Shown: positions 19,541-31,159 of the stretch, in pieces
How the letters are laid out: each line of letters begins with the position of its first letter
Position numbering within the stretch: the stretch's first letter is position 1
Source of the DNA: a virus
Taxonomy: Duplodnaviria; Heunggongvirae; Uroviricota; Caudoviricetes
IMG/VR virus record: IMGVR_UViG_2778261667_000008
Span: 1-44,055 of that record
DNA length: 44,055 nt
Reading direction: 5' to 3' (one strand)
Notes under the pieces: generated by a model
Databases searched by the model: none
Seen by the model: only the letters and a program-made list of their open reading frames with translations
What the model was told of the DNA's origin: nothing
Position numbers and translations under genes: made by a program

Positions 19541-20998
19541 TTAGGAGCGCCAAAAAAAACCTGAAAACAATATAATAACAGGATAAATTTCAAGGCGACC
19601 AAGAATCATAGCTATGCACATTAAATATTTTGCAATGTCATTAAGCACTCCGAATGACGATGCAGTAGCCCCAAAACCTAATCCCATATTATTAATACAT
19701 GCAGCCACTGTTGCAAATGATGTAAGAAAATCATATCCCATACCATTTAACACCAGTATAAAAAACACCGTGAAGAGAGTATAAAGAAAAAAGAAACTCC
19801 ATACAGACCTCATTACACGATCTGTAACTATCTTCCCTCCTACATTTACACTCAACAACGCTCTGGGATGAGAAAGTTGATTTATCTCGTGTTTGCTTTG
19901 TTTGAAAAGTATAAGAAATCGAAGTGACTTAATTCCACCACAGGTTGAACCGATACATCCCCCAAAGAAACTTGACAACAGCAAAAACACTATCGTGTGC
20001 GTGGGCCAGTTTGCATAATCCTGCGTAGCTAAACCATTATCAGTGAGCATGGAGCTGGCAAGAAAAAACGAATGAATAAAACTTCCATGCAAGTCATACA
20101 TACCTATATGCCAGACCTGGAAAGAGGTAACAATGATCACCCCTAAGGCTATTAATAGAAAGAAACGAAGTTCAATATCTCTGATTAAAGGTTTTATCGT
20201 TTTTCTGCTAATAACAATATACCAAAGAGTGAAGTTGAAAGCCGATAGCAGGGAAAAAGAACCAGCCACCAGCTCAACCAAATAGTTATTAAAATATCCG
20301 ATACTCTCGCTATGAGTTGAGAAACCACCAAGCGAAACTGTGGAAATCCCGTGACAAATAGCATCAAACAAAGGCATTCCTGCAAGTCTATAACAGACAA
20401 TACAAGCAATACCTAATAAAGAATAAGTTATCCACAGTGTCCGTGACGTATCGGCCAGGCGGGGAGTGAGTTTGTCATCCTTAAATGGCCCCGGCATTTC
20501 TGACTGATAAAGCTTTGCACCACCAATACCCAATAATGGCAATACTGCAACCGCCAGAACAATAACTCCTAAACCACCTATAAAATTTAACTGTGACCGA
20601 TAGTACAAATATGCCCGAGGTAATGAACTAACATCATCAATTACAGTTGCTCCTGTTGTTGTTATTCCAGAAACCCCTTCAAACAGAGCATCAATGAACG
20701 TTAAATTAAGTTCTGAGTCAATCCATAAAGGGAATGCACTAATAACAGAAAACAAAATCCAAAACATTACAATTATAATAAACCCATCACGGGTACGTAA
20801 TTGAATGCCAGATTTCTTAGTTGTATACCACGCTCCGCCACCAATGCAAAAAAATATAACGAAAGTTATAAAGAAAACGAACAGGCTTTTTTCTTTATAA
20901 AACAATGCTACAACCATTGGTGGCAACATTGAAAGACTATAGAGCCAAACCAGGAACCCACACATATGAGTAACAACTCTTACATGAGATGTATTCAT
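19541..20998 (-). CDS. trkG: TrkH/TrkG-family potassium uptake membrane protein
   Basis: Polytopic membrane protein; sequence from MNTSHVRVVTHMCGFLVWLYSLSM... matches my recollection of K-12 TrkG; first ATG at 20998 (the track start at 21016 is TTG); AT-rich gene. Confidence 0.9.
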   Translation of the reverse strand: MNTSHVRVVTHMCGFLVWLYSLSMLPPMVVALFYKEKSLFVFFITFVIFFCIGGGAWYTTKKSGIQLRTRDGFIIIVMFWILFSVISAFPLWIDSELNLTFIDALFEGVSGITTTGATVIDDVSSLPRAYLYYRSQLNFIGGLGVIVLAVAVLPLLGIGGAKLYQSEMPGPFKDDKLTPRLADTSRTLWITYSLLGIACIVCYRLAGMPLFDAICHGISTVSLGGFSTHSESIGYFNNYLVELVAGSFSLLSAFNFTLWYIVISRKTIKPLIRDIELRFFLLIALGVIIVTSFQVWHIGMYDLHGSFIHSFFLASSMLTDNGLATQDYANWPTHTIVFLLLSSFFGGCIGSTCGGIKSLRFLILFKQSKHEINQLSHPRALLSVNVGGKIVTDRVMRSVWSFFFLYTLFTVFFILVLNGMGYDFLTSFATVAACINNMGLGFGATASSFGVLNDIAKYLMCIAMILGRLEIYPVIILFSGFFWRS

Positions 20999-21135
20999 AT
21001 CTAAATATTCTTTCAATTATAACCACCTTGCTGCAATATTATGATTATACTGTATAAAATTTAACTCCTCTTAGATTTTACTTCACTGTTCCTTATGAAA
21101 CAATCATCAAAATGAATCATATTGTAGTTAAGATT

Positions 21136-21615
21136 TTACTTTAAACACTGTTCGGTTATGTATTGCTGAGCACCTTCAAGTTGGGCCTGCATCATTACCA
21201 GTCGTTCCCGGAGGGTGAAATAATCCCGTTCAGCGGTGTCTGCCAGTCTGGGGGAGACTGCATTATCCACGCTGGAGGTGGCGGTGGCTTCACGCACTGA
21301 CTGACAGACTGCTTTGATGCGCAACCGACGACGACCAGCGGCAACATCATCACGCAGAGCATCATTTTCAGCTTTCGCATCAGCTAACTCCTTCAGGTAT
21401 TTTGCATCGAGTGCAGCAACATCACGCTGGCGTATCTGCATGTCAGTAATGATTGCGGTCGCCTGGTTGAGTTTTTCCGTCACATTATCGCGTTGCGCTT
21501 TGTAGGTAATGGCATTATCACGGTAATGATTAACAGCCCATGACAGGCAGACGATGATGCAGATAACCAGAGCATAAATAATCACGGCAACTCTGCTCAC
21601 TGCTCTATCCCCCAA
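21136..21615 (-). CDS. rzpR: Rz-type i-spanin
   Basis: 159 aa, N-terminal TM segment, coiled-coil periplasmic domain; overlaps the endolysin 3' end and contains the embedded Rz1 frame. Confidence 0.75.
21195..21380 (-). CDS. rzoR: Rz1-type o-spanin lipoprotein (embedded in Rz in the +1 frame)
   Basis: 61 aa; lipobox LVVVGC, proline-rich PPPPPAW; matches my recollection of RzoR. Confidence 0.75.
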
Positions 21616-22130
21616 CAGGCTAATGCGCTCTCCTGATCACGACGAATAACCTGACCGTAACAGTTATTTGAACGAAGGCGGCAATCGCGCCCCCTGTCCT
21701 TAATCCACCAGCGAATCGCCTCGCAGGCACCTTTACGATCACCTGCATTCAGCCGCTTATAAAATGTCGACGGAAAACACTTAGCGGGGCCAATGTTATA
21801 GGGACAAAATGACGCGATACCCGCTTTTTGTGGTTCGGTCAGTGTTACTTTAATATTGCGATCCACCCATGCCAGCGCCTTATCACGCTCAATGGCATTA
21901 ACCTGATCGCATTTTTCCTTCGTCAGTGTCATGCCCGGAATAACAGGTTTACCATCTACTATCGTGGCACCGCGACAGATGGTCCATATGCCGGAACCAT
22001 CGCGGTATGCCGTAGTGTGGTTACCCTCTTTTTCATCCAGAAACTGGTCAAGTATCTCAGGAGCAGATGCGCCTGCTCCAATCAGCGCCAGAACGGCCGC
22101 TGACAGGCCGTATTTGGTTTTTGCGTTCAT
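21597..22130 (-). CDS. SAR-type endolysin (phage lysozyme, T4-lysozyme fold)
   Basis: 177 aa; N-terminal Gly/Ala-rich signal-anchor-release segment ([21 protein letters not shown]); phage-21 R-like. Confidence 0.8.
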
Positions 22131-22235: not shown

Positions 22236-22508
22236 ATGGACAATAACACCATTTCTCTACAGGAGTTGCTCGACTGCATTTCCAGGCTTCGGGATGATGT
22301 AAATGCCCTCACTGTTGCATTTTCATATCTGGCCTTATCAATTCCCAGAGAACAAATGCAACCAACACTGGCATCGCTCCTGCTTGAATCACGCAACCCC
22401 AAATGGTCCCAGGAACAACAAAATTCTTTTAAGTGGCTGGCGACATTACTGGAAGAAAAATATGCTGGTAAAATTACCATTTCGGTGGAGTCTTCAGAAA
22501 ATCAGTAA
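22236..22508 (+). CDS. Hypothetical 90-aa protein encoded antisense inside the lysis cassette
   Basis: ATG at 22236 with AAGAGG SD 7 nt upstream; its 3' end overlaps the 3' end of the 114-aa minus-strand gene by 35 nt. Confidence 0.4.
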   Translation: MDNNTISLQELLDCISRLRDDVNALTVAFSYLALSIPREQMQPTLASLLLESRNPKWSQEQQNSFKWLATLLEEKYAGKITISVESSENQ

Positions 22509-22818
22509 TTCTTCCTGGTAGCTTTCCTTTGTAGGTTATCCACACATTCTGCGCCTCTAAAATTACGGGGCGCTTTTCCGGCGACTGCTCATCCCCTTCA
22601 CATAACCCGGCAGCAACATCCAGGAAGACCTGTCTGATGCTCCTTCTGGCTGCAGCCTCATAAAACTCCAGCGCAGCACCTTCAACACGGTCCAGCGAGA
22701 TGTCCAGGTCAAAAATTTCACCGTCAAAGCGTTTTTTGTCTTGTAATGCTACAGTTACCGCAACTTTATTCTCAAAATTGCGGATCCCTTTCACAATCAG
22801 TTCATAGTCTTGGGTCAT
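22474..22818 (-). CDS. Hypothetical 114-aa protein translationally coupled to the holin gene
   Basis: ATG at 22818 preceded by GAGAGGAGAG SD, 4 nt after the holin stop; no family recognised. Confidence 0.55.
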   Translation of the reverse strand: MTQDYELIVKGIRNFENKVAVTVALQDKKRFDGEIFDLDISLDRVEGAALEFYEAAARRSIRQVFLDVAAGLCEGDEQSPEKRPVILEAQNVWITYKGKLPGRITDFLKTPPKW

Positions 22819-22822
22819 TATA

Positions 22823-23038
22823 TTACTCTCCTCTCGCAGCCTTTCTTCTGTCTTCTCTGATTTTGAAGTACAGATTTGTCAGATAAGTCAAAAAGCCCAG
22901 AACCAGACTTCCCAGCACACCAATTGCAGCCCACTGTGACGAACTGACCTGATCCAGCCACTGTAAAAACCAGTATCCAGCACTGCCTGCGGAGGTGCCG
23001 TAGGCAATGCCCGTTGTTAACTTGTCCATGGATTTCAT
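22823..23038 (-). CDS. Class II holin (phage 21 S / pinholin type) with dual-start motif
   Basis: 71 aa starting MKSMDK (Met1 and Met4 starts at 23038 and 23029), two TM segments, charged C-terminus; GGAGG SD. Confidence 0.85.
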
Positions 23039-23254
23039 AGCCTCACCTCCGAGAATTCGGATGGTGCTAAACGTAGGGTCCAGGCTCTCAGATTTACTAA
23101 CAAGAAGTCAGAGATGTTATCCGTAGCCTGACAATGAAAAAGCCCTGGTACATGCAAGGGCCTGATGAAGTACCAGATTAAGAATCTGGCGGCATAACCT
23201 CGCACTTGATATCGTTACATCGCCAAAAGTAACAACTATCAATGGAGAAAATGA

Positions 23255-23767
23255 ATGGAACTATTTTTGGTTGATCGCCGAGGAATATACTCAACTGGCG
23301 ATATTGTTACACCAAAGCGATTCTCCGATATAAGTCCTGTCGAAATGTCATCTCTGGTAGACAAACTTTTTCCGTGCGGGCTTGCACCACATGGCGAGGG
23401 ATACCTTATTAACAATGCGGCAAAAAATTATAATAAAAACGAATTCATCGACTGGGGGTTAGAGTTTTACCGAAGAGGAGTTTACCCGCAAAAACCTTCT
23501 CGCTATACGTCACTCTTCGCATGGGGTAACCTGGAGGAGGCTAAACATTTTCGACTTACAGACGGGAAACCATCAGATAAAATCTTCATAATACAAACAG
23601 ATAGTTATCATCGCGGAGATATGTCATTATTAAGAAATGATACATCAGTACTGGAATTCACCTACAGAATGGAACTTTACTGGGCAGGTAAAACCTTTAA
23701 CCCTGATCCAGTCTGGGAATACATTTGTCCGCTACCAGTAACTATCGGTGAACAAGTCCTTGCTTAA
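23255..23767 (+). CDS. Hypothetical 170-aa protein (moron between Q-like gene and lysis cassette)
   Basis: ATG at 23255 with GGAG SD; AT-rich; antisense to the late-operon direction; no family recognised. Confidence 0.55.
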   Translation: MELFLVDRRGIYSTGDIVTPKRFSDISPVEMSSLVDKLFPCGLAPHGEGYLINNAAKNYNKNEFIDWGLEFYRRGVYPQKPSRYTSLFAWGNLEEAKHFRLTDGKPSDKIFIIQTDSYHRGDMSLLRNDTSVLEFTYRMELYWAGKTFNPDPVWEYICPLPVTIGEQVLA

Positions 23768-24021
23768 TCCCCTTCATCCCAATAAAGACCTTTCGCGACA
23801 CAATGGGGGCGGTAAGGATAGCAATAACTTGCTCTGACGTTACCAACCAGCGTACCACTTTCTTTGAATGCCTTATCTCCGTTCCTGAGCTGTGATAAGG
23901 CCTTTTCAAGTTCAGCTATCGCGACAGCCACGTCTTCGCTTTCTACATACAGTGAAAAACCTTTAATGGGTGAACTCATGGTAAGTTGGCTCATAGATAT
24001 TTGATGATGGTGTGAGTGCAT
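23764..24021 (-). CDS. Hypothetical 85-aa protein
   Basis: Track ORF 23764..24066; the best start is the ATG at 24021 (MHSHHHQISM...) preceded by GGGAGA; its stop overlaps the stop of the convergent 170-aa gene. Confidence 0.4.
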   Translation of the reverse strand: MHSHHHQISMSQLTMSSPIKGFSLYVESEDVAVAIAELEKALSQLRNGDKAFKESGTLVGNVRASYCYPYRPHCVAKGLYWDEGD

Positions 24022-24410
24022 AAATAGTCTCCCAGTGAAAGAAAATTCGAGTTGTGCTGTTACCATATCAAGGATGCTACTTATTTCTATATGAAAACAA
24101 TAATAATCATTTAATATGCATAATTATAATTAGCCATCAAGCATTCAAGAAACCATCAAGATATTGATATAAATCACCACAAAACCAATATCGCCTCATA
24201 AAATACCTACGATTCTTTGTCTGTCGGAATCTTTTGTAAATCCTTGTTCTTCTCACCATGAATTTTCACGGGCTCCTCTTCCGGGGAGCTATTTTTTATC
24301 GTAAATAACCACTCATTACAGATGAATTGACCAAAATCAATATCCGTCACAGACATAGAGCAATAGAATTAATAACGTACGCGGTTACTTATATACTTCC
24401 TTTATTCACA

Positions 24411-24438
24411 AGCGACTCTTTAACGGGTCGCTTTTTTT
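24411..24438 (+). terminator. Intrinsic terminator-like hairpin
   Basis: AGCGAC-TCTTTAACGG-GTCGCT followed by TTTTTTT. Confidence 0.5.
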
Positions 24439-24566
24439 CGGACTATCACCGACACAATGTCAAAAAAAAGATCTGCATCACAAAAAAACTTATAAAAAAA
24501 TCACAAAATCCAAAACTCCACTACATAAACACTAATAAATATTGCTTCACATATTTTCATACTAGT

Positions 24567-24588
24567 GCCCTCGCAAGAGGGCTTTTTT
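24567..24588 (+). terminator. Intrinsic terminator-like hairpin
   Basis: GCCCTC-GCAA-GAGGGC followed by TTTTTT. Confidence 0.55.
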
Positions 24589-24728
24589 ATCTGGATGAAA
24601 AACAATCAACCATTAATAATGACATAGTAATATTGACTAAGGTCAAGGAAAAACAAATCATGACACCTAAAGATATAAGAGTTTTTCTGGAGGCGAATTT
24701 TAAAATGCATTAGATTTTACGGCTCTTT

Positions 24729-24755
24729 CACGGGCCGTTTTTTTGCCTGAAATTA
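24729..24755 (+). terminator. Intrinsic terminator-like hairpin
   Basis: ACGGC-TCTTTCACGG-GCCGT followed by TTTTTTT; loop nearly identical to the hairpin at 24411. Confidence 0.5.
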
Positions 24756-24864
24756 TGCCAGAAGCCGTGCTGCATCATCTCACCAACATCAACGTCTCCT
24801 CAGTCCTGAATTAAGACTACGTGGTGATTTTTAGCCTAAAATCCCTGCCAAATACTTTCTATAT

Positions 24865-24890
24865 AAACAAAAAACCGCCCGTCAAGGCGG
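24865..24890 (-). terminator. Intrinsic terminator downstream of the Q-like gene (second of two)
   Basis: Minus-strand CCGCC-TTGACG-GGCGG followed by TTTTTTGTTT. Confidence 0.6.
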
Positions 24891-25155
24891 TAAAAAGATG
24901 GTTAGCTAAAGAGGTCATTATTATTATGATCTGAGGCGTCGGGTGCCTCCCGAAGTATATCAGCTCCTGACTAATACACTGTGGCTTCCCTCCCGCTAAA
25001 CAGTTATACCTTGCCACCCCCGCCCTGGGGAACACCTCAAGATCCTTAACAGATTAAAATACAGCATTAATAATATAAGTGATCTACATCACATTATTTA
25101 GGCATAGAAATATGCATCAAAACAACAACAATATATCAACACTAATATCTCATTT

Positions 25156-25185
25156 CTTACAGATACAAAAAAACCACCTTTAGGT
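25156..25185. terminator. Bidirectional intrinsic terminator just downstream of the Q-like gene (candidate tR')
   Basis: ACCACC-TTTA-GGTGGT flanked by an A-run on one side and a T-run on the other, so it reads as stem plus U-tail on either strand. Confidence 0.6.
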
Positions 25186-25270
25186 GGTTTTTTTGTATCC
25201 GTGGGATTGTTCGCCTCGCGATACAGCTTTGCGAAGCATAGCGAAATTGAAGCAGTTTATACGTAAGAAA

Positions 25271-25933
25271 TCAAGCCATTTTCTCAGCAAATGATTCACG
25301 CATGGGAATATATAGGACATACTCAGCAACAGCTAACCAATTAGCAATCCGTTTTTCGCATGTGCTAAAACACCACTCTGGGTGTGCATCATGTAGCAAT
25401 TCAGCCATTTTACGCTTAGTCATCCCCCGCCCTTCATAGCGTTGCCGGAGAATGCAAATCAATCCTGGATGCTCTGCCAGCACCTCACTTATGACTCGAT
25501 CAATACATAACGCCTCTGCATCAGTACAATGCGCCAGCCAGCTCTTTTGCTTGCCGTTGATCATCTCTCTCAAAAACGCTTCCAGCTCAGCTTTCTCTAT
25601 TCCCGCTTTTTTCATTCTGCGCAGGGCTTCATTGATGGCTGTTTTCGTCAATTTTTGGGATGCCAACAACTGATTGAACATATTTCCTGACCTGCCACCG
25701 CCAATATACGACCAGCGCCCCCACATACGCAGTTTGCCCTGAATCCAGACACTTTCCAGCGTGGCGAGACGAAGGTGTTCTCCGCTTTTTCCTGTATTCG
25801 TTGGGTAAATCACAAATATCCCTCCTTTCTCCAGATTTCTTGTGTGCGAAAAACACCTTCTGCATGCATCAGGCGTAATTCTTCTTTGGTGTAATCGCTG
25901 GTTTTTACCCGCCCGTCGATTAGATCGTGGCAT
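25271..25933 (-). CDS. Putative late-gene antiterminator (Q-like by position)
   Basis: Last gene before two tandem terminators and about 2.2 kb upstream of the lysis cassette; Cys/His-containing. The track start at 25933 overlaps the upstream gene by 124 nt; alternative ATGs at 25726 and 25681 would give a 151- or 137-aa product. Family not recognised by eye. Confidence 0.45.
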   Translation of the reverse strand: MPRSNRRAGKNQRLHQRRITPDACRRCFSHTRNLEKGGIFVIYPTNTGKSGEHLRLATLESVWIQGKLRMWGRWSYIGGGRSGNMFNQLLASQKLTKTAINEALRRMKKAGIEKAELEAFLREMINGKQKSWLAHCTDAEALCIDRVISEVLAEHPGLICILRQRYEGRGMTKRKMAELLHDAHPEWCFSTCEKRIANWLAVAEYVLYIPMRESFAEKMA

Positions 25934-27168: not shown

Positions 27169-27324
27169 TTACTCCTCAGGTTCGTAAGCTGTGAAGACAG
27201 CGACCTCCGTCTGACCGGTTCGGATTCGCACCTCGCAGAGGTCTTTCCTCGTTACCAGTGCCGTCACTATGACGGTTAAACAGATGACAATCAGTGCGAC
27301 TAACATCGCCTTTTGCTGCTTCAT
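27169..27324 (-). CDS. hokD: Hok/Gef-family type I toxin
   Basis: MKQQKAMLVALIVICLTVIVTALVTRKDLCEVRIRTGQTEVAVFTAYEPEE is near-identical to my recollection of HokD (RelF); AAGGAGAAG SD; the track ORF extends 19 codons upstream in frame; perfect 9-bp stem-loop (27138..27159) in the 3' region. Confidence 0.8.
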   Translation of the reverse strand: MKQQKAMLVALIVICLTVIVTALVTRKDLCEVRIRTGQTEVAVFTAYEPEE

Positions 27325-27955
27325 AGCCTGCTTCTCCTTGCCTTCCGGCGCGTAAGAGGCTAACCTACATGTGCAAAGCATGAAATTGGCCTCAGATTAA
27401 TGTTAAGCGTCTTGCCGGACGCGTAATGTTATCTGGGGCTTTTCTCTATCTGCCGTTGGTGTTCATGCCCGAGGCAGATAGCCTCAAGCACCCGCAGCAA
27501 TTCTACTTAACCCCCGTCACCTCGCCAATATAAAATCAATCAGAAAGGCGATCCATAAGAACAACAGCAAGACAATAAATTGCCATTACAGCCGCAATAG
27601 CTAGCGCACATTTGAGAACCAGCACGACAACCTCCTGTATTGGGCGTACACCAGTCCTGATAAATATGAGGATGTCTCGTCAGTGATTCAATGCAACTAT
27701 TGGGTATAGTTTCTGTGATTTTGTTCTGTAGAAATGGAACACAACAACCAGTCACCATCCGCTCTTCTTTAAATGCGCTAAGTCAGACACAAGCCAACAT
27801 TTTAGTTGGCTTTGAGCGTTCTGGAGATGCGACATTGCTAACAGCCTTTTGAATGAACTAATCGGGGGCTAGTCATAACGGGCATAGCAGTCTCCAAGTA
27901 AGCAAGACTTTGCCATACAGAATGGAGCTAAGTTATTCATCAAATCTCCTTAAAT

Positions 27956-28933
27956 TCATAAAGTTAAATGCGGCCCTAAATACGCCACATATATCCGCTG
28001 ATTTACTGCGTCAGCATAAAAATGTAGGCGGTAACCGTCAGGTAGTTTTACATGATTCTCGCAATAGACCTGCCGTCCATCATCTAACCAAAATATGCGC
28101 TCTTTCTTCTTTTTGGGGGCATTATTTACACTGTCCGATTCACCGCTAACTTCAGCAGCCAAACCCAAATCTCTTAAATATTCATGACGGTACTCTACAT
28201 ACTCACCTGAACGCCATTTCTCACTAAACGATTCCAACACATTTAGCGCATCTCGTGCCTTGAACAAGACATTTTGCCTAGCAGACCAACCTTGTAGACT
28301 TGTACCTATTTGATTTGACAACAAAGTGAGATGAGGAAACAAATCTGCTCTTTTCAGCCAGATATCCTTAGCAGTACTTAACAACGTATTACGATGTTGT
28401 TTGAGTTCATCTCCATGCACATCCAAGCTCGCAGAATTACTCAGATTTAAAATCGTTTCATCCCTTTGTTCTGGTATTGCATCAAGCTCGAAAACCCATA
28501 CTTTAAAATGGCTATTTGTCCAAGTAGCTAAAGCCGTAAAACTAGCAAGAAAAGTTTTAAAATAAAACGCTGCTAATAGCACCGCTTTACCTGTATCTTC
28601 CCCTGGCAAGCCAACTTCTAATACATCACCTAAAGTTTCAATATCCACGGTTTCAAAGAGAGGCTGTTTCGTTTCAAGAGACTTTAGAAATCGACACCAA
28701 TCCGCAAGTTCTGCAACTTTGCTCGCAGAGGCAAGCCAATTGCGCACAAAATATCCGTTAGCCAGCTCCAATCCCATTAGCGACTTGTCTTGATCTTCAT
28801 CGATGAGCAAAATTTTCAGCCCAGCAGTTCGGCAGACCTTAAGAACAGTAAAGAAAGCCAATAGTCCTTCATCTGCATCCTCTTTGCTAGCAAATGGCAA
28901 AGAATGATGGTTCAACACAATTCCATTACTCAT
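27956..28933 (-). CDS. Hypothetical 325-aa protein, third gene of the DUF262/ATPase operon
   Basis: ATG overlaps the stop of the upstream ATPase gene (ATGA); AT-rich; no domain recognised by eye. Confidence 0.7.
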   Translation of the reverse strand: MSNGIVLNHHSLPFASKEDADEGLLAFFTVLKVCRTAGLKILLIDEDQDKSLMGLELANGYFVRNWLASASKVAELADWCRFLKSLETKQPLFETVDIETLGDVLEVGLPGEDTGKAVLLAAFYFKTFLASFTALATWTNSHFKVWVFELDAIPEQRDETILNLSNSASLDVHGDELKQHRNTLLSTAKDIWLKRADLFPHLTLLSNQIGTSLQGWSARQNVLFKARDALNVLESFSEKWRSGEYVEYRHEYLRDLGLAAEVSGESDSVNNAPKKKKERIFWLDDGRQVYCENHVKLPDGYRLHFYADAVNQRIYVAYLGPHLTL

Positions 28934-30039
28934 AACAGATGATCCAACTCCTTATCCCATTGGTCAAAGAAGCCTTCCGGCCAACAGTCTATTCGTCCCT
29001 CATCATCAATATTGGGGTACATGACTTCTGAGGCGTGAATGGAGTTATGAACATCTCGCTGTAAGAAAAAGACTTTGACATCGTCAGCTGCAACCACTTT
29101 CTGCTTCACCGCAACCCGTATACCGTTGAGAAAATGATCAGAATGAGATTCAACGATTAATTGCACGCCATTATTCGCAGCAATGGAGCACAATTTACCC
29201 ATCAAGGATTGCCCAGCGGGATGCAAGTGTGATTCTGGGTTTTCAATAATCAGCAAATCACCTTTTGCCGCACTTAGTATACTGGTTACGACAGGTAACA
29301 CATAACTTAATCCAAACCCCACATTCTGTGGTTTAAAGTCTTCGGTGGTGTCTTTCCCTTGGTTAAAAGAGTAACTAAGACTCACCGAATTAAACTGAGG
29401 CTGCGCTACTGCTTTAATTTTTAACCCTGGCGTAATATCCGACATCCATGCTTCAATATTAGAAAGCAAAGTCCCTGAAACAGCCTTTTGATGGCGTAAC
29501 GCTTCTATTTCCAGGTCTTTAGCGCCATTAACCGCGATAAAATGAACTGCAAATTCGCCATGATGACCAAGTGATTTTAAATCACGGATATGAAACTCAG
29601 ACAACTGGTGATGGCTTTGTGGGCCTAACCTATCGGCACATAAATACTGAAAATTAGAGTTAAATAAGCTTAATAATTCTGAATCACCGTCAATACCAGA
29701 TTTACGCAGCGGCAGCAGATCTGAGTCATGTTGATAATCAAACTCAAACCGTGTTGGCTGTTCTTTCTCGAGCCATTTAATGGTAAAAATAATCTCTTCT
29801 TGTTCACTAAAACTAGAGAGCGCGTCTTTACCCGTACCGATATTGACATAATCACCATTTAACAGCAAACCCTTAGTTTTAAGGGTATTGCGTTCATAAG
29901 ACTGCCTTAAAAGCAATAAACTTTGCACAAGCGTTGATTTTCCCATGCCATTAAGGCCTGAGAACAGATTCAGATTACCCAGTGGAAAACTGGCATTTAA
30001 CAAGGTTTTAAAGTTTTGAATATTAATAAACTCAATCAT
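28930..30039 (-). CDS. AAA_21/ABC-type ATPase (OLD/AriA/PtuA-like ATPase architecture, no nuclease domain evident)
   Basis: Walker A GLNGMGKST near the N-terminus; LLIIENPESHLHP (DEPExxLHP-type Walker B/D-loop signature); C-terminal ...CWPEGFFDQW; start overlaps the upstream gene's stop by 8 nt. Confidence 0.8.
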   Translation of the reverse strand: MIEFINIQNFKTLLNASFPLGNLNLFSGLNGMGKSTLVQSLLLLRQSYERNTLKTKGLLLNGDYVNIGTGKDALSSFSEQEEIIFTIKWLEKEQPTRFEFDYQHDSDLLPLRKSGIDGDSELLSLFNSNFQYLCADRLGPQSHHQLSEFHIRDLKSLGHHGEFAVHFIAVNGAKDLEIEALRHQKAVSGTLLSNIEAWMSDITPGLKIKAVAQPQFNSVSLSYSFNQGKDTTEDFKPQNVGFGLSYVLPVVTSILSAAKGDLLIIENPESHLHPAGQSLMGKLCSIAANNGVQLIVESHSDHFLNGIRVAVKQKVVAADDVKVFFLQRDVHNSIHASEVMYPNIDDEGRIDCWPEGFFDQWDKELDHLL

Positions 30040-31159
30040 TAAGCATCTCTTTAATCAAAGCATTGACTTTTTCATACCGTATTTCCACATGCTCTTTTCG
30101 CTGAGTGGAGTAGCTAATAACATTAATAAATTCAGCATCTTCCAATAACGTCTGCACCTTTTTTTGAAACTTTTTTTGATTATAAACCAAGCGGTTAAAC
30201 TCGTTTTCAGTTAATTTCACCAACATAACCATCCAGACTTCAAATAGTGTTGCATTTTTTGACCGTCTTCTTGATGCAGGGTTTTTTTCAAAACCCTTTT
30301 CTCCTAACAGTTGGTAACAGCGCTCTATTGCAGTTGAATACTTAGCTTTAAACTCTGCACGGTAGGCATCATCACCTTTTTTGATATCTTCCATGGCTTT
30401 ATCTAAAAACGAAGAAATTTCTTTTTTGTTTTTAGGGTCTAAATAATCAAAGCGATAGAACGCCCAGAATCGCAATACCAGTTCCTGATCCTTCATACGT
30501 TTGGAAAGGTCACCTAGCATGGCTTTCGAGCATGCTGAATTGGCTAACTCTTCGAGCAATTCTCTGTCTCTTGGCTTAGCGAGCGCATTACGGATCTCTT
30601 GATTATTTAGAGTTAAGCCACCTGTATTGATCCGGCGAAACACCGAATACTTAACGTCCTCAGGCGTACCCGGCTTAATCATGTACACAGTAACAGGACA
30701 TTCTTCAATACGGCGTTGATATTGACGATGTAATTTATCGAAGGTTTTACCATTAAGGTCTGTTAAGAACTCCAGTCCATTGAGACGAAGCTTTTTATCT
30801 AACACAAACTTGCGAATCGTAGATAACCGCTGCAAGCCATCCACAATTAGCCAATTATTTTCATCGGACGCATCGAAGTAGAAAGCAGGTAATGGGAACC
30901 GAATCAAAATTGATTCGATTAATCGGCTCATCTTGCGGTTATCCCATAACTCCGCATGGCGCTGAAAATCGGTATTCATGTCGATCTCATTGTGCTGAAT
31001 TCGCTTAATCAAGGCATCCAACGACTTCGGTTCAACGACGATATCAATATCAGTCGGGTTGAACGGGTGCATCACCTCATCAAGCAGTTCCGGCTCTTCC
31101 TCTTCCGCACCTGGCGCAACCAACTCTTCATCAAGCTCGGTTTCTTGATAATCAACCAT
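30032..31159 (-). CDS. DUF262-like (ParB/Srx-fold, GmrSD N-domain-like) protein
   Basis: 375 aa; FQR...W...IVDGLQRLSTI matches the DGQQR signature region of DUF262; acidic N-terminal tail; ATG at 31159 with AAGGGGAAG SD. Confidence 0.7.
   Translation of the reverse strand: MVDYQETELDEELVAPGAEEEEPELLDEVMHPFNPTDIDIVVEPKSLDALIKRIQHNEIDMNTDFQRHAELWDNRKMSRLIESILIRFPLPAFYFDASDENNWLIVDGLQRLSTIRKFVLDKKLRLNGLEFLTDLNGKTFDKLHRQYQRRIEECPVTVYMIKPGTPEDVKYSVFRRINTGGLTLNNQEIRNALAKPRDRELLEELANSACSKAMLGDLSKRMKDQELVLRFWAFYRFDYLDPKNKKEISSFLDKAMEDIKKGDDAYRAEFKAKYSTAIERCYQLLGEKGFEKNPASRRRSKNATLFEVWMVMLVKLTENEFNRLVYNQKKFQKKVQTLLEDAEFINVISYSTQRKEHVEIRYEKVNALIKEMLND

What the first reader, a model, noticed from the sequence alone, without database searches (positions are those of the whole stretch)
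23039..24066. Convergent gene pair with overlapping stop codons in the AT-rich moron slot between the Q-like gene and the holin
Seen: a 170-aa plus-strand gene (23255..23767) with a good SD and an 85-aa minus-strand gene (23764..24021) whose stop codons overlap on opposite strands, both in DNA that is more AT-rich than the lysis and structural genes. Established: the Q-to-S interval of lambdoid phages is the classical location of cargo genes (for example stx in Stx phages) expressed from the late promoter. Neither protein matches a family I recognise. The 170-aa gene is antisense to late transcription, so it would be expressed mainly in the lysogen.
Basis: partly seen in the sequence, partly recalled or inferred. 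Interest (0 to 1): 0.5.

Follow-up and report, generated by a model that had tools for sequence, protein, structure and literature searches.

The report
Prophage ADP-ribosyltransferase-like gene with small partner
The two tail-to-tail genes are real and travel together between prophages: one encodes an uncharacterised enzyme with the fold of ADP-ribosylating toxins, the other a small partner from no known family, so this is probably a new toxin-and-neutraliser or phage-defence cassette, though no function has been tested.

Summary
A 170-aa + strand gene (23255-23767) and an 85-aa - strand gene (23764-24021) share a palindromic TTAA that holds both stop codons. Both have Shine-Dalgarno sites and evolve under purifying selection.

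The 85-aa protein has no known family. It accompanies the ART gene, always convergent and overlapping, in every locus of two ART lineages that share only about 38% identity. These loci span at least five phage backbones in Escherichia, Salmonella, Providencia, Arsenophonus and Klebsiella.

Related Rac-like prophages carry other cargo in the same Q-to-holin slot. Only 7 of 5426 complete E. coli genomes carry this cassette.

Best reading (about 0.45): a mobile ART effector with a cognate small neutraliser, also regulated by convergent transcription, possibly serving prophage defence. Enzyme activity, toxicity, protein interaction and expression timing are all untested. Other DUF2441 lineages lack the partner.

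The parts
23143..23159 (-). Terminator-like hairpin with a T-run in the late-gene direction, lying between the 5' end of the ART gene and the holin
   Evidence: 5-bp stem, CTTTTTC tail. Hairpins with different stem sequences sit at the equivalent place in Salmonella (L008 5910-5887, 10 pairs), Providencia (L031 4860-4881, 8 pairs) and E. coli C311 (L002 5939-5923). None was found in Arsenophonus.
23160..23254 (+). Conserved region of about 95 nt upstream of the ART gene (presumed promoter, operator or 5'UTR), including the inverted repeat CCAGAT-N5-ATCTGG, an invariant TCTGGCG and the Shine-Dalgarno GGAG
   Evidence: Five-genus DNA alignment. No sigma-70 consensus match. No convincing conserved RNA fold (z -1.6, no compensatory pairs). 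Function not established.
23255..23767 (+). 170-aa DUF2441 / BC2332-like ADP-ribosyltransferase-fold protein (phrog_5663)
   Evidence: All family-conserved residues are present: D7 R8, P40 G42 H46 G47 Y50, E70 R73, P81 S82 R83 S86 F88, D122 M123, Y142 W143 G145, W154 E155, P161.
23764..23767 (.). TTAA palindrome containing both stop codons (4-bp convergent overlap)
   Evidence: The same 4-bp overlap occurs in Salmonella, Arsenophonus, Providencia and E. coli C311.
23764..24021 (-). 85-aa partner protein with no known family. Predicted beta-beta-alpha-beta-beta-alpha. Conserved core KGFSLYVESED..AI..LE.ALSQL...FKESG..GNV and C-terminus HC.AKGLYWDE
   Evidence: No Pfam, NCBIfam, PADLOC, PHROG or PDB match. 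Shine-Dalgarno GGGAG at 24029-24033.
24271..24290 (+). Terminator-like hairpin in the ART direction, just beyond the start of the small gene. An ART transcript ending here would cover the whole small gene in antisense
   Evidence: Equivalents in Salmonella (L008 6790-6809, with A-run and T-run on either side, so bidirectional) and Providencia (L031 3905-3888). Absent in C311, where a methyltransferase gene abuts.
24022..25206 (.). AT-rich (GC 0.359) spacer with no credible ORF. It belongs to the same insert as the pair in this prophage but is not part of the conserved two-gene module
   Evidence: Homology to other E. coli downstream of Q stops at about 25207. The full spacer is found only in the 6 genomes that also carry the pair on this backbone. 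The module shared with the C311 prophage is 23147-24044 only (H7).

Best explanation
A self-contained, horizontally mobile two-gene cargo cassette (core 23147-24044).

The 170-aa gene encodes a cytoplasmic enzyme of the DUF2441 / BC2332-like branch of the ADP-ribosyltransferase superfamily. It most likely uses NAD+ to ADP-ribosylate a cellular or phage macromolecule.

The 85-aa gene encodes its cognate partner, most likely a neutraliser (antitoxin or immunity-like protein).

The genes are convergent and overlap at their 3' ends, and terminators lie only outside the pair. Each transcript must therefore run antisense through the other gene. Expression of the two should be mutually antagonistic, through transcriptional interference or antisense RNA, on top of any protein-protein neutralisation.

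In this lambdoid context the small gene lies on the late-gene strand, between Q and the holin. The ART gene would then be made from its own promoter in the lysogen, as a candidate abortive-infection or exclusion effector. It would be shut off and neutralised when the prophage's own Q-dependent late transcription sweeps through.

Shown: gene reality, fold and family, conserved active-site Glu, strict pairing, mobility, cargo position.

Inferred: enzymatic activity, toxicity, neutralisation by the small protein, timing of expression, defence role.
For: Fold and family:
- Every homologue carries a precomputed PF10386 hit.
- 54 of 65 family members match DUF2441 in the local Pfam copy.
- The family profile hits PDB 2AUA (BC2332) at E 5e-7 and 2e-13.
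- Foldseek finds 2AUA at E 2e-6, then sub-threshold cholera toxin and LT.
- DUF2441 is listed in Pfam's ART clan (PMC7955679) and BC2332-like is in the SCOP ADP-ribosylation superfamily (PMC3000352). Active-site template matches to diphtheria toxin are reported for 2AUA (PMC3024214).

Active site:
- E155 is invariant and sits at the start of predicted strand 5.
- R8 follows strand 1 and S86 starts strand 2, the topological positions of an R-S-E triad.

Functional linkage:
- The small gene is present, convergent and overlapping in all of about 20 loci with ART at 68% identity or more. These come from E. coli (two backbones), Salmonella, Arsenophonus, Providencia and IMG/VR or metagenome contigs.
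- It is also present in all of about 9 KP12-type loci, where ART identity is only about 38% and the overlap is 80-106 nt.
- The pair decays as a unit or ART-first. In Izhakiella the ART gene is split while the small gene is intact. In L032 a junction deletion truncates both. In L033 only a small-gene remnant with an altered C-terminus remains, and HicAB sits in the slot.

Cargo and defence flavour:
- Alternative cargo occupies the same slot in sister prophages.
- Relatives lie in the tail-integrase cargo zone of Gordonia temperate phages, one next to RelBE.
- Other relatives lie beside DUF4238 plus a resolvase, or HNH plus an AAA_15/21 ATPase.

Flanking terminators are conserved in position but not in sequence.
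Against: - No experiment and no interaction prediction.
- Many DUF2441 genes have no detectable homologue of the small protein. These include the L023-type prophage lineage (44-46% identity), which nests between the two partnered lineages in a crude NJ tree. The ART can therefore persist without this partner, which argues against an indispensable antitoxin unless it has been replaced by something else.
- Convergent orientation is atypical for type II toxin-antitoxin pairs.
- About 12% of family members, including the KP12 type, lack R8, so the NAD-binding motif is non-canonical. The conserved H46-G47-Y50 motif lies in a low-confidence loop.
- No promoter was identified for either gene.
- In KP12-type phages the orientation relative to the late genes is reversed, so the lysogen-on, late-off wiring cannot be general.
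- No PADLOC defence model matches.
Confidence: 0.45

Rival explanations
1. Phage-benefit enzyme rather than a toxin or defence effector. The ART modifies a host or competitor target to help the phage. It could be counter-defence like the anti-CRISPR ART AcrIF11, or host takeover like T4 Alt/ModA/ModB. The small protein would then be a regulator, specificity factor or chaperone rather than a neutraliser.
Against: In five enterobacterial backbones the ART gene is antisense to the late operon, so late transcription should suppress it. Relatives also sit in chromosomal islands next to defence-type genes. An ART-only pseudogene with an intact partner fits loss of a costly gene better than loss of a beneficial one.
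Confidence: 0.2
2. Small-molecule-modifying ART acting as a lysogenic-conversion trait, comparable to Arr, which ADP-ribosylates rifampicin. The lysogen would be protected from an antibiotic or toxin, and the small gene would have a regulatory or unrelated role.
Confidence: 0.1
3. Catalytically dead ART-fold protein, acting for example as a binding or sensor module, with the small protein as its ligand or regulator.
For: The canonical H-Y-E or R-S-E motif cannot be assigned with confidence, and R8 is missing in about 12% of the family. The window protein scores below Pfam's DUF2441 threshold on its own, 12.2 against 25 bits.
Against: E155, R73, R83, Y142 and W143 are invariant across 65 sequences that share about 30% identity, with dN/dS of 0.05-0.21. 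Published active-site template matches exist for 2AUA.
Confidence: 0.1
4. Two unrelated genes (morons) that happen to be adjacent, with no functional relationship. The small gene would simply be the first gene of the late operon.
For: In Salmonella the small gene follows Q by 137 bp and has no room for its own promoter after the terminator. The partner is absent from many DUF2441 loci.
Against: The pair is inherited together across at least five phage backbones and five genera. It stays together in a second ART lineage where it is flipped relative to the late genes. Within these two lineages no locus had one gene without at least a remnant of the other, apart from L033, where only a small-gene remnant remains.
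Confidence: 0.07

Closest known systems
BC2332 of Bacillus cereus (PDB 2AUA), Pfam DUF2441 (PF10386), SCOP 'BC2332-like' family of the ADP-ribosylation superfamily
   Different: Only 17% identity. The window protein is about 50 residues shorter at the N-terminus and alone scores below Pfam's threshold. BC2332 itself has no known function, so membership gives a fold but not an activity.
ART toxin-antitoxin and defence modules: DarT-DarG, ParT/RES-ParS/Xre, CmdTAC (from my own knowledge, plus the structural hits)
   Different: No sequence relationship. The partner is not a macrodomain, an Xre-type HTH or a SecB-like chaperone. The genes are convergent and overlapping rather than forming a co-directional operon. 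There is no PADLOC match.
Cholera toxin / heat-labile enterotoxin / pertussis S1 (R-S-E clade ARTs)
   Different: No signal peptide, no B subunit and no ExE/QxE motif (the sequence is V-W-E). The Arg is not universal in the family. Identity is about 12-14%.
Cargo of the lambdoid Q-to-S interval (for example stx in Stx phages), and prophage abortive-infection genes with built-in self-immunity such as BstA/aba (from my own knowledge)
   Same: Same genomic slot and the same logic of accessory genes swapped in and out between Q and the holin. Sister prophages carry tRNAs or TolA-like genes there.
   Different: stx is co-oriented with late transcription and depends on it. Here the enzyme gene is antisense to it. 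The self-immunity idea is only an analogy and is untested.
Convergently transcribed regulatory pairs (convergent restriction-modification gene pairs, type I toxin-antitoxin loci with 3' overlap; from my own knowledge)
   Same: Tail-to-tail genes with overlapping 3' ends and terminators only outside the pair. This predicts antisense control or transcriptional interference.
   Different: Both partners here are proteins under purifying selection, not a toxin plus an antisense RNA. There are no restriction or methylase domains.

Membership tests
Pfam DUF2441 (PF10386) / BC2332-like | Significant sequence match to the family model | tested here: met
   The window protein alone gives E 0.19 and 12.2 bits against a cutoff of 25, so membership is transitive rather than direct. 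All close and distant homologues carry precomputed PF10386.17 hits. 54 of 65 aligned relatives match PF10386.15 at E 0.01 or better. The family profile hits 2AUA at E 2e-13.
Pfam DUF2441 (PF10386) / BC2332-like | Same three-dimensional fold as the family's solved structure (2AUA) | tested here: met
ADP-ribosyltransferase superfamily (ART clan) | Split beta-sheet ART core fold | tested here: met
ADP-ribosyltransferase superfamily (ART clan) | Catalytic Glu (or Asp/Gln) at the start of strand 5 | tested here: met
   E155 is invariant in 65 sequences and present in 152 of 158. It lies at the start of predicted strand 154-159. The position was assigned from predicted secondary structure, not from a residue-level superposition.
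ADP-ribosyltransferase superfamily (ART clan) | NAD+-binding motif on strands 1 and 2 (H-Y or R-S[TS]) | tested here: inconclusive
   R8 (138/158) after strand 1 and S86 (135/158) at the start of strand 2 fit R-S-E. However, R8 is Ser in the KP12 and L023 types. The alternative H46-G47..Y50 motif lies in a loop with pLDDT below 50. R73 and R83 are the invariant arginines.
ADP-ribosyltransferase superfamily (ART clan) | NAD+-dependent ADP-ribosyl transfer activity | not testable with these tools
   Needs biochemistry.
Type II toxin-antitoxin system | Two adjacent genes that co-occur and are inherited as a unit | tested here: met
   Present in all of about 29 loci across two ART lineages, five genera and at least five phage backbones.
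Type II toxin-antitoxin system | Co-directional bicistronic operon, usually with the antitoxin first and autoregulating | tested here: not met
   The genes are convergent, with a 4-bp (enteric type) or 80-106-nt (KP12 type) 3' overlap. The partner has no recognisable DNA-binding domain.
Type II toxin-antitoxin system | Toxicity of one protein, neutralised by direct binding of the other | not testable with these tools
The small protein alone gives pLDDT 57.
Known anti-phage defence systems (PADLOC-DB v2.0.0) | Match of either protein to a defence-system model | tested here: not met
   No family at E 1 or better for either protein. As a positive control, the NsnABC genes of the same window are detected at E 1e-89 to 4e-123.
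DarTG | DarT (DUF4433) toxin plus a macrodomain antitoxin | tested here: not met

The most novel reading that the evidence does not exclude
The cassette is a new kind of prophage immunity module. A DUF2441 ADP-ribosyltransferase is armed in the lysogen as an abortive-infection or exclusion effector. Its dedicated inhibitor gene is wired, tail-to-tail and overlapping, into the prophage's own late transcription. Q-dependent read-through would then silence the effector gene by antisense transcription and also supply the protein that neutralises existing enzyme. The prophage would disarm its own weapon only when it goes lytic itself.
Probability: 0.2. Interest if true: 0.75.

Novelty: new variant of a known kind. 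Interest (0 to 1): 0.5.

Why it matters
DUF2441 is a large family. It has at least 1458 clusters at 50% identity, and a crystal structure has existed since 2005. I found no paper on its function in the library searched.

This work links one branch of the family to a dedicated small partner and to prophage cargo slots. That gives a concrete, cheap experimental entry point: a 0.9-kb cassette and a one-residue catalytic mutant.

If the enzyme is an active ART held in check by the 85-aa protein, it would add a new ART toxin and neutraliser pair to the DarTG, ParST and CmdTAC group. Its convergent, overlapping architecture would be unusual for such pairs, and it would be a candidate prophage-encoded defence.

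It would also explain why the small gene, which RefSeq annotates inconsistently or omits, is conserved.

Tried and rejected
- Direct family searches for the 85-aa protein found nothing. This covered Pfam on all 15 homologues, NCBIfam, PADLOC, PHROGs and a PDB profile search. The best PDB hit was a His-tag artefact matching the HHHQ N-terminus.
- The AF2 model of the 85-aa protein was too poor (pLDDT 57, pTM 0.44) to use in a fold search.
- A conserved RNA structure in the ART 5' region is not supported: alifold finds 6 pairs with no compensatory changes, and the single-sequence z-score is -1.6.
- No sigma-70 promoter match lies upstream of the ART gene. I tried hexamers by eye and none was convincing.
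- I searched for homologues of the small protein next to unpartnered DUF2441 genes, using a combined HMM with filters off. This covered the L023 type, L005, Photobacterium, L036 and the Gordonia phages. Nothing scored below E 4. The 62-aa convergent ORF in L036 looks spurious from its composition.
- The broad-alignment locus scan (A3) failed for lack of a conserved stretch. The genome-contig scan returned only Izhakiella. The AFDB50 fold library was unavailable.
- The literature search was negative. DUF2441 gave three papers, none functional. PF10386 and the RefSeq accessions gave none. No supplements were held for two defence-discovery papers.
- I rejected assigning the protein to Arr, cholera-toxin-like or DarT families. 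The evidence is superfamily-level structural similarity only.
Full report
**Setting**

The window is a Rac-like lambdoid prophage of E. coli. On the - strand lie trkG (19541-21016), Rz/Rz1, a lysozyme (21597-22130), a YdfR/DUF1327 gene (22474-22818), a class II holin (22823-23038) and, further right, a Q-like DUF1133 gene (25271-25933) preceded by DUF1364 and DUF1367 genes. Late transcription therefore runs right to left. The finding lies between Q and the holin.

**Observation**

The ORF list and the sequence confirm a 170-aa + strand ORF at 23255-23767 and a - strand ORF ending at 23764.

- Positions 23764-23767 read TTAA, so both TAA stop codons share one palindrome.
- The + strand gene has GGAG 8 nt before its ATG.
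- The - strand gene has three possible starts. The one at 24021 (85 aa) has GGGAG 7 nt upstream and is the length and N-terminus (M..HHHQ) conserved in homologues from other genera.
- RefSeq annotates this gene as 76 aa, 100 aa or not at all.
- Pairwise dN/dS among E. coli, Salmonella, Providencia and Arsenophonus copies is 0.05-0.21 for the large gene and 0.09-0.39 for the small one, so both are protein-coding genes under purifying selection.
- GC content is 0.41 and 0.45, against 0.48-0.49 for the flanking lysis and Q genes.

**Identity of the 170-aa protein**

Alone it matches phrog_5663 (function unknown, E 2e-59) and only weakly matches Pfam DUF2441 (E 0.19). The weak hit is nevertheless real, for these reasons:

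- Every homologue found in the 5.8-billion-protein search carries a precomputed PF10386 hit.
- An exhaustive profile search finds 1458 clusters at E 1e-3 or better, mostly single-domain proteins of 170-190 aa.
- 54 of 65 aligned relatives match DUF2441 in the local Pfam copy.
- The family profile hits the one solved member, B. cereus BC2332 (PDB 2AUA), at E 5e-7 with the close alignment and 2e-13 with the broad one.

The literature places DUF2441 in Pfam's ART clan (PMC7955679) and BC2332 in the SCOP ADP-ribosylation superfamily (PMC3000352). It also reports active-site template matches of 2AUA to diphtheria toxin, exotoxin A and cholix toxin (PMC3024214). I found no paper on the function of the family.

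**Active site**

I aligned 158 sequences and a separate set of 65.

- Invariant in the 65-sequence set: R73, R83, Y142, W143 and E155.
- At 90% or more in that set: D7, R8, P40, G42, G47, E70, P81, S82, F99, W154 and P161.
- Strongly conserved in the 158-sequence alignment: H46, Y50, S86, F88, D122 and M123.

Mapped on the predicted secondary structure, R8 follows strand 1, S86 opens strand 2 and E155 opens strand 5. These are the positions of the R-S-E triad of cholera-toxin-like ARTs.

This mapping is inferred from topology, not from a residue-level superposition, which the tools do not provide. It is also not clean. About 12% of the family, including the KP12 and L023 types, have Ser at position 8. 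The H-G..Y motif, which could instead be the His of an H-Y-E arrangement, lies in the low-confidence loop.

I conclude that the catalytic Glu is present and that the protein in this window keeps every family-conserved residue. The NAD-binding motif is non-canonical, and activity is unproven.

**Identity of the 85-aa protein**

It has no family in Pfam, NCBIfam, PADLOC, PHROGs or PDB sequences. Sixteen homologues were found, typically 85 aa, with a conserved core (KGFSLYVESED..AI..LE.ALSQL..FKESG..GNV) and C-terminus (HC.AKGLYWDE). Its AlphaFold model is poor (pLDDT 57), with predicted order beta-beta-alpha-beta-beta-alpha. Both proteins are mildly acidic and lack signal or membrane segments.

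**The two genes form one unit**

This is the main new result.

I scanned all fetched loci with HMMs of both proteins. Every locus whose ART is at least 68% identical to the window's has the small gene immediately convergent, with the same 4-bp overlap:

- E. coli on the Rac-like backbone.
- E. coli C311, on a different phage with a lambda-family holin, a canonical Q and a DNA methyltransferase upstream.
- Salmonella.
- Arsenophonus, between RusA and a methyltransferase.
- Providencia, with a different holin and an M15 endolysin.
- Nine IMG/VR contigs and one metagenome contig.

A second ART lineage, only about 38% identical, occurs in Klebsiella phage KP12 and related IMG/VR and SRA contigs (nine loci). 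It also has a convergent ORF there, unannotated in the KP12 record. That ORF is a distant homologue of the small protein (E 5e-5 with the first HMM, 1e-17 to 1e-29 with the combined HMM). It overlaps the ART 3' end by 80-106 nt. In that lineage the pair is flipped relative to the holin and terminase genes.

Decay patterns fit a unit:

- In Izhakiella the ART gene is split while the small gene is intact.
- In L032 a deletion across the junction truncates both genes.
- In L033 only a small-gene remnant with an altered C-terminus remains, and a HicAB pair occupies the slot.
- In L016 an IS10-like element has inserted between the two intact genes.

The DNA shared between the two E. coli backbones is 23147-24044, which is exactly the pair plus about 100 nt upstream of the ART gene.

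**Limits of the pairing**

Other DUF2441 genes have no detectable homologue of the small protein, even with filters off. These are the L023-type prophage genes between the lysis and terminase genes (44-46% identity), a metagenomic lineage (37%), Photobacterium, a chromosomal island copy and the Gordonia phage copies. In a crude NJ tree the two partnered lineages fall in one larger clade but are not sisters, and the unpartnered L023 type nests between them. The ART can therefore exist without this partner.

**Cargo character**

- Only 7 of 5426 complete E. coli genomes carry the block, and no sequenced phage record matches it at DNA level.
- Prophages with the same backbone at 95% identity carry tRNA-Gly/Thr or TolA-C-domain genes in the Q-to-holin slot.
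- Backbone homology downstream of Q ends near 25207.
- Distant relatives sit in other classical accessory positions. One is the tail-to-integrase zone of temperate Gordonia phages, in one case next to RelBE. Others are chromosomal islands next to DUF4238 plus a resolvase, or next to HNH plus an AAA_15/21 ATPase.

**Transcriptional anatomy**

No terminator can fit between the genes, so the terminator-like hairpins lie outside the pair.

- One in the late direction lies between the ART 5' end and the holin. It is found in the window (23159-23143), Salmonella, Providencia and C311, with different stem sequences.
- One in the ART direction lies just beyond the small gene's start. It is found in the window (24271-24290), Salmonella (where it is bidirectional, directly between Q and the small gene) and Providencia.

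Each transcript should therefore cover the other gene in antisense. This is inferred from consensus scans, not from RNA data. The 95 nt upstream of the ART gene are conserved across five genera. I could not identify a sigma-70 promoter or a supported RNA structure there.

**Interpretation**

The best-supported reading is a mobile two-gene module. It consists of an ART-fold enzyme, probably active, and a cognate small protein that most plausibly restrains it, with convergent transcription adding mutual repression. In the lambdoid context the small gene is on the late strand and the enzyme gene opposes it. This suggests enzyme expression in the lysogen and shut-off on induction.

I put about 0.45 on the effector-plus-neutraliser reading. 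Within it, I put about 0.2 on the specific version in which the prophage disarms itself by late transcription. The rivals are:

- A phage-benefit enzyme with a helper or regulator (0.2).
- An Arr-like small-molecule modifier (0.1).
- A pseudo-enzyme (0.1).
- Two unrelated neighbours (0.07).

What weighs against the leading reading is the existence of partner-less lineages, the atypical orientation for a toxin-antitoxin pair, the reversed orientation in KP12-type phages, the lack of any PADLOC match and the absence of any interaction or activity test.

**Novelty and score**

The enzyme family is a known domain of unknown function with a solved structure. The partner family, the strict pairing and the overlapping convergent architecture are, as far as the searched literature shows, undescribed. 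ART toxins with neutralising partners and prophage cargo genes are established concepts, so I rate this a new variant of a known kind, with interest 0.5.

Noticed in passing
window 27956-31159 (- strand): Three consecutive ORFs (325, 369 and 375 aa) match the PADLOC candidate defence system NsnC/NsnB/NsnA at E 1e-89, 9e-122 and 4e-123. Their Pfam domains are AAA_15/AAA_21/DUF3696 and GmrSD_N. In E. coli T-HYM1 the equivalent slot of the otherwise near-identical prophage holds an AAA ATPase plus a DUF4435 protein (PARIS-like). This is therefore a second variable cargo slot.
   Followed up: partly
window 27319-27493 (- strand): A sok antisense RNA (Rfam RF01794, 111 bits, E 2e-25). It belongs to a hok/sok locus between the replication-side genes and the DUF1367/DUF1364/Q block.
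   Followed up: no
window 24022-25206: A 1.2-kb AT-rich spacer (GC 0.359) between the small gene and Q, with no credible ORF. It has four + strand terminator-like hairpins about 150 nt apart (24271, 24410, 24567, 24719) and one on the - strand (24891-24874). That is 6 sites in the scanned region against 1.8 expected. The spacer occurs only in the six E. coli genomes that carry the pair on this backbone. There is a weak sub-threshold Rfam hit to STnc100 at 24865-25065. The region remains unexplained.
   Followed up: partly
window 25159-25202: A 21-nt inverted repeat, 95% complementary, flanked by A7 and T7 (ACAGATACAAAAAAACCACCT / AGGTGGTTTTTTTGTATCCGT). It is a bidirectional terminator-like element about 70 nt downstream of the Q-like gene, at the edge of the conserved backbone. 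It may be the tR'-type terminator of the late promoter.
   Followed up: no
window 22236-22508 (+) and 22474-22818 (-): A second convergent, overlapping pair inside the lysis cassette. A 90-aa + strand ORF (phrog_2411, E 5e-57; annotated hypothetical in RefSeq) overlaps the 3' end of the YdfR/DUF1327 gene by 35 nt. In E. coli EC1722-1 it is a pseudogene with an internal stop.
   Followed up: no
L016 5529-6737 (IMG/VR UViG_2657244961_000008): An IS10-like transposase gene has inserted between the ART gene and the small gene, leaving both ORFs intact but 1.3 kb apart. This is a natural uncoupling of the overlap.
   Followed up: no
L012 1352-2184 (Izhakiella australiensis): The ART gene is split into fragments of 117 aa and 52 aa, while the convergent small gene is intact.
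   Followed up: no
L033 4700-5750 and L032 4190-4575: In prophages where the pair is degraded, HicA/HicB toxin-antitoxin genes occupy the Q-to-holin interval on the strand opposite to late transcription. That is the same orientation as the ART gene has here.
   Followed up: no
window 23555-23583 (+), inside the ART gene: A promoter-like match (CTTACA-17-TAAAAT, 9 of 12) recurs at the same place in the ART gene in Salmonella, Arsenophonus, C311 and Providencia. It could drive antisense RNA across the small gene, or it could simply reflect conserved coding sequence.
   Followed up: no
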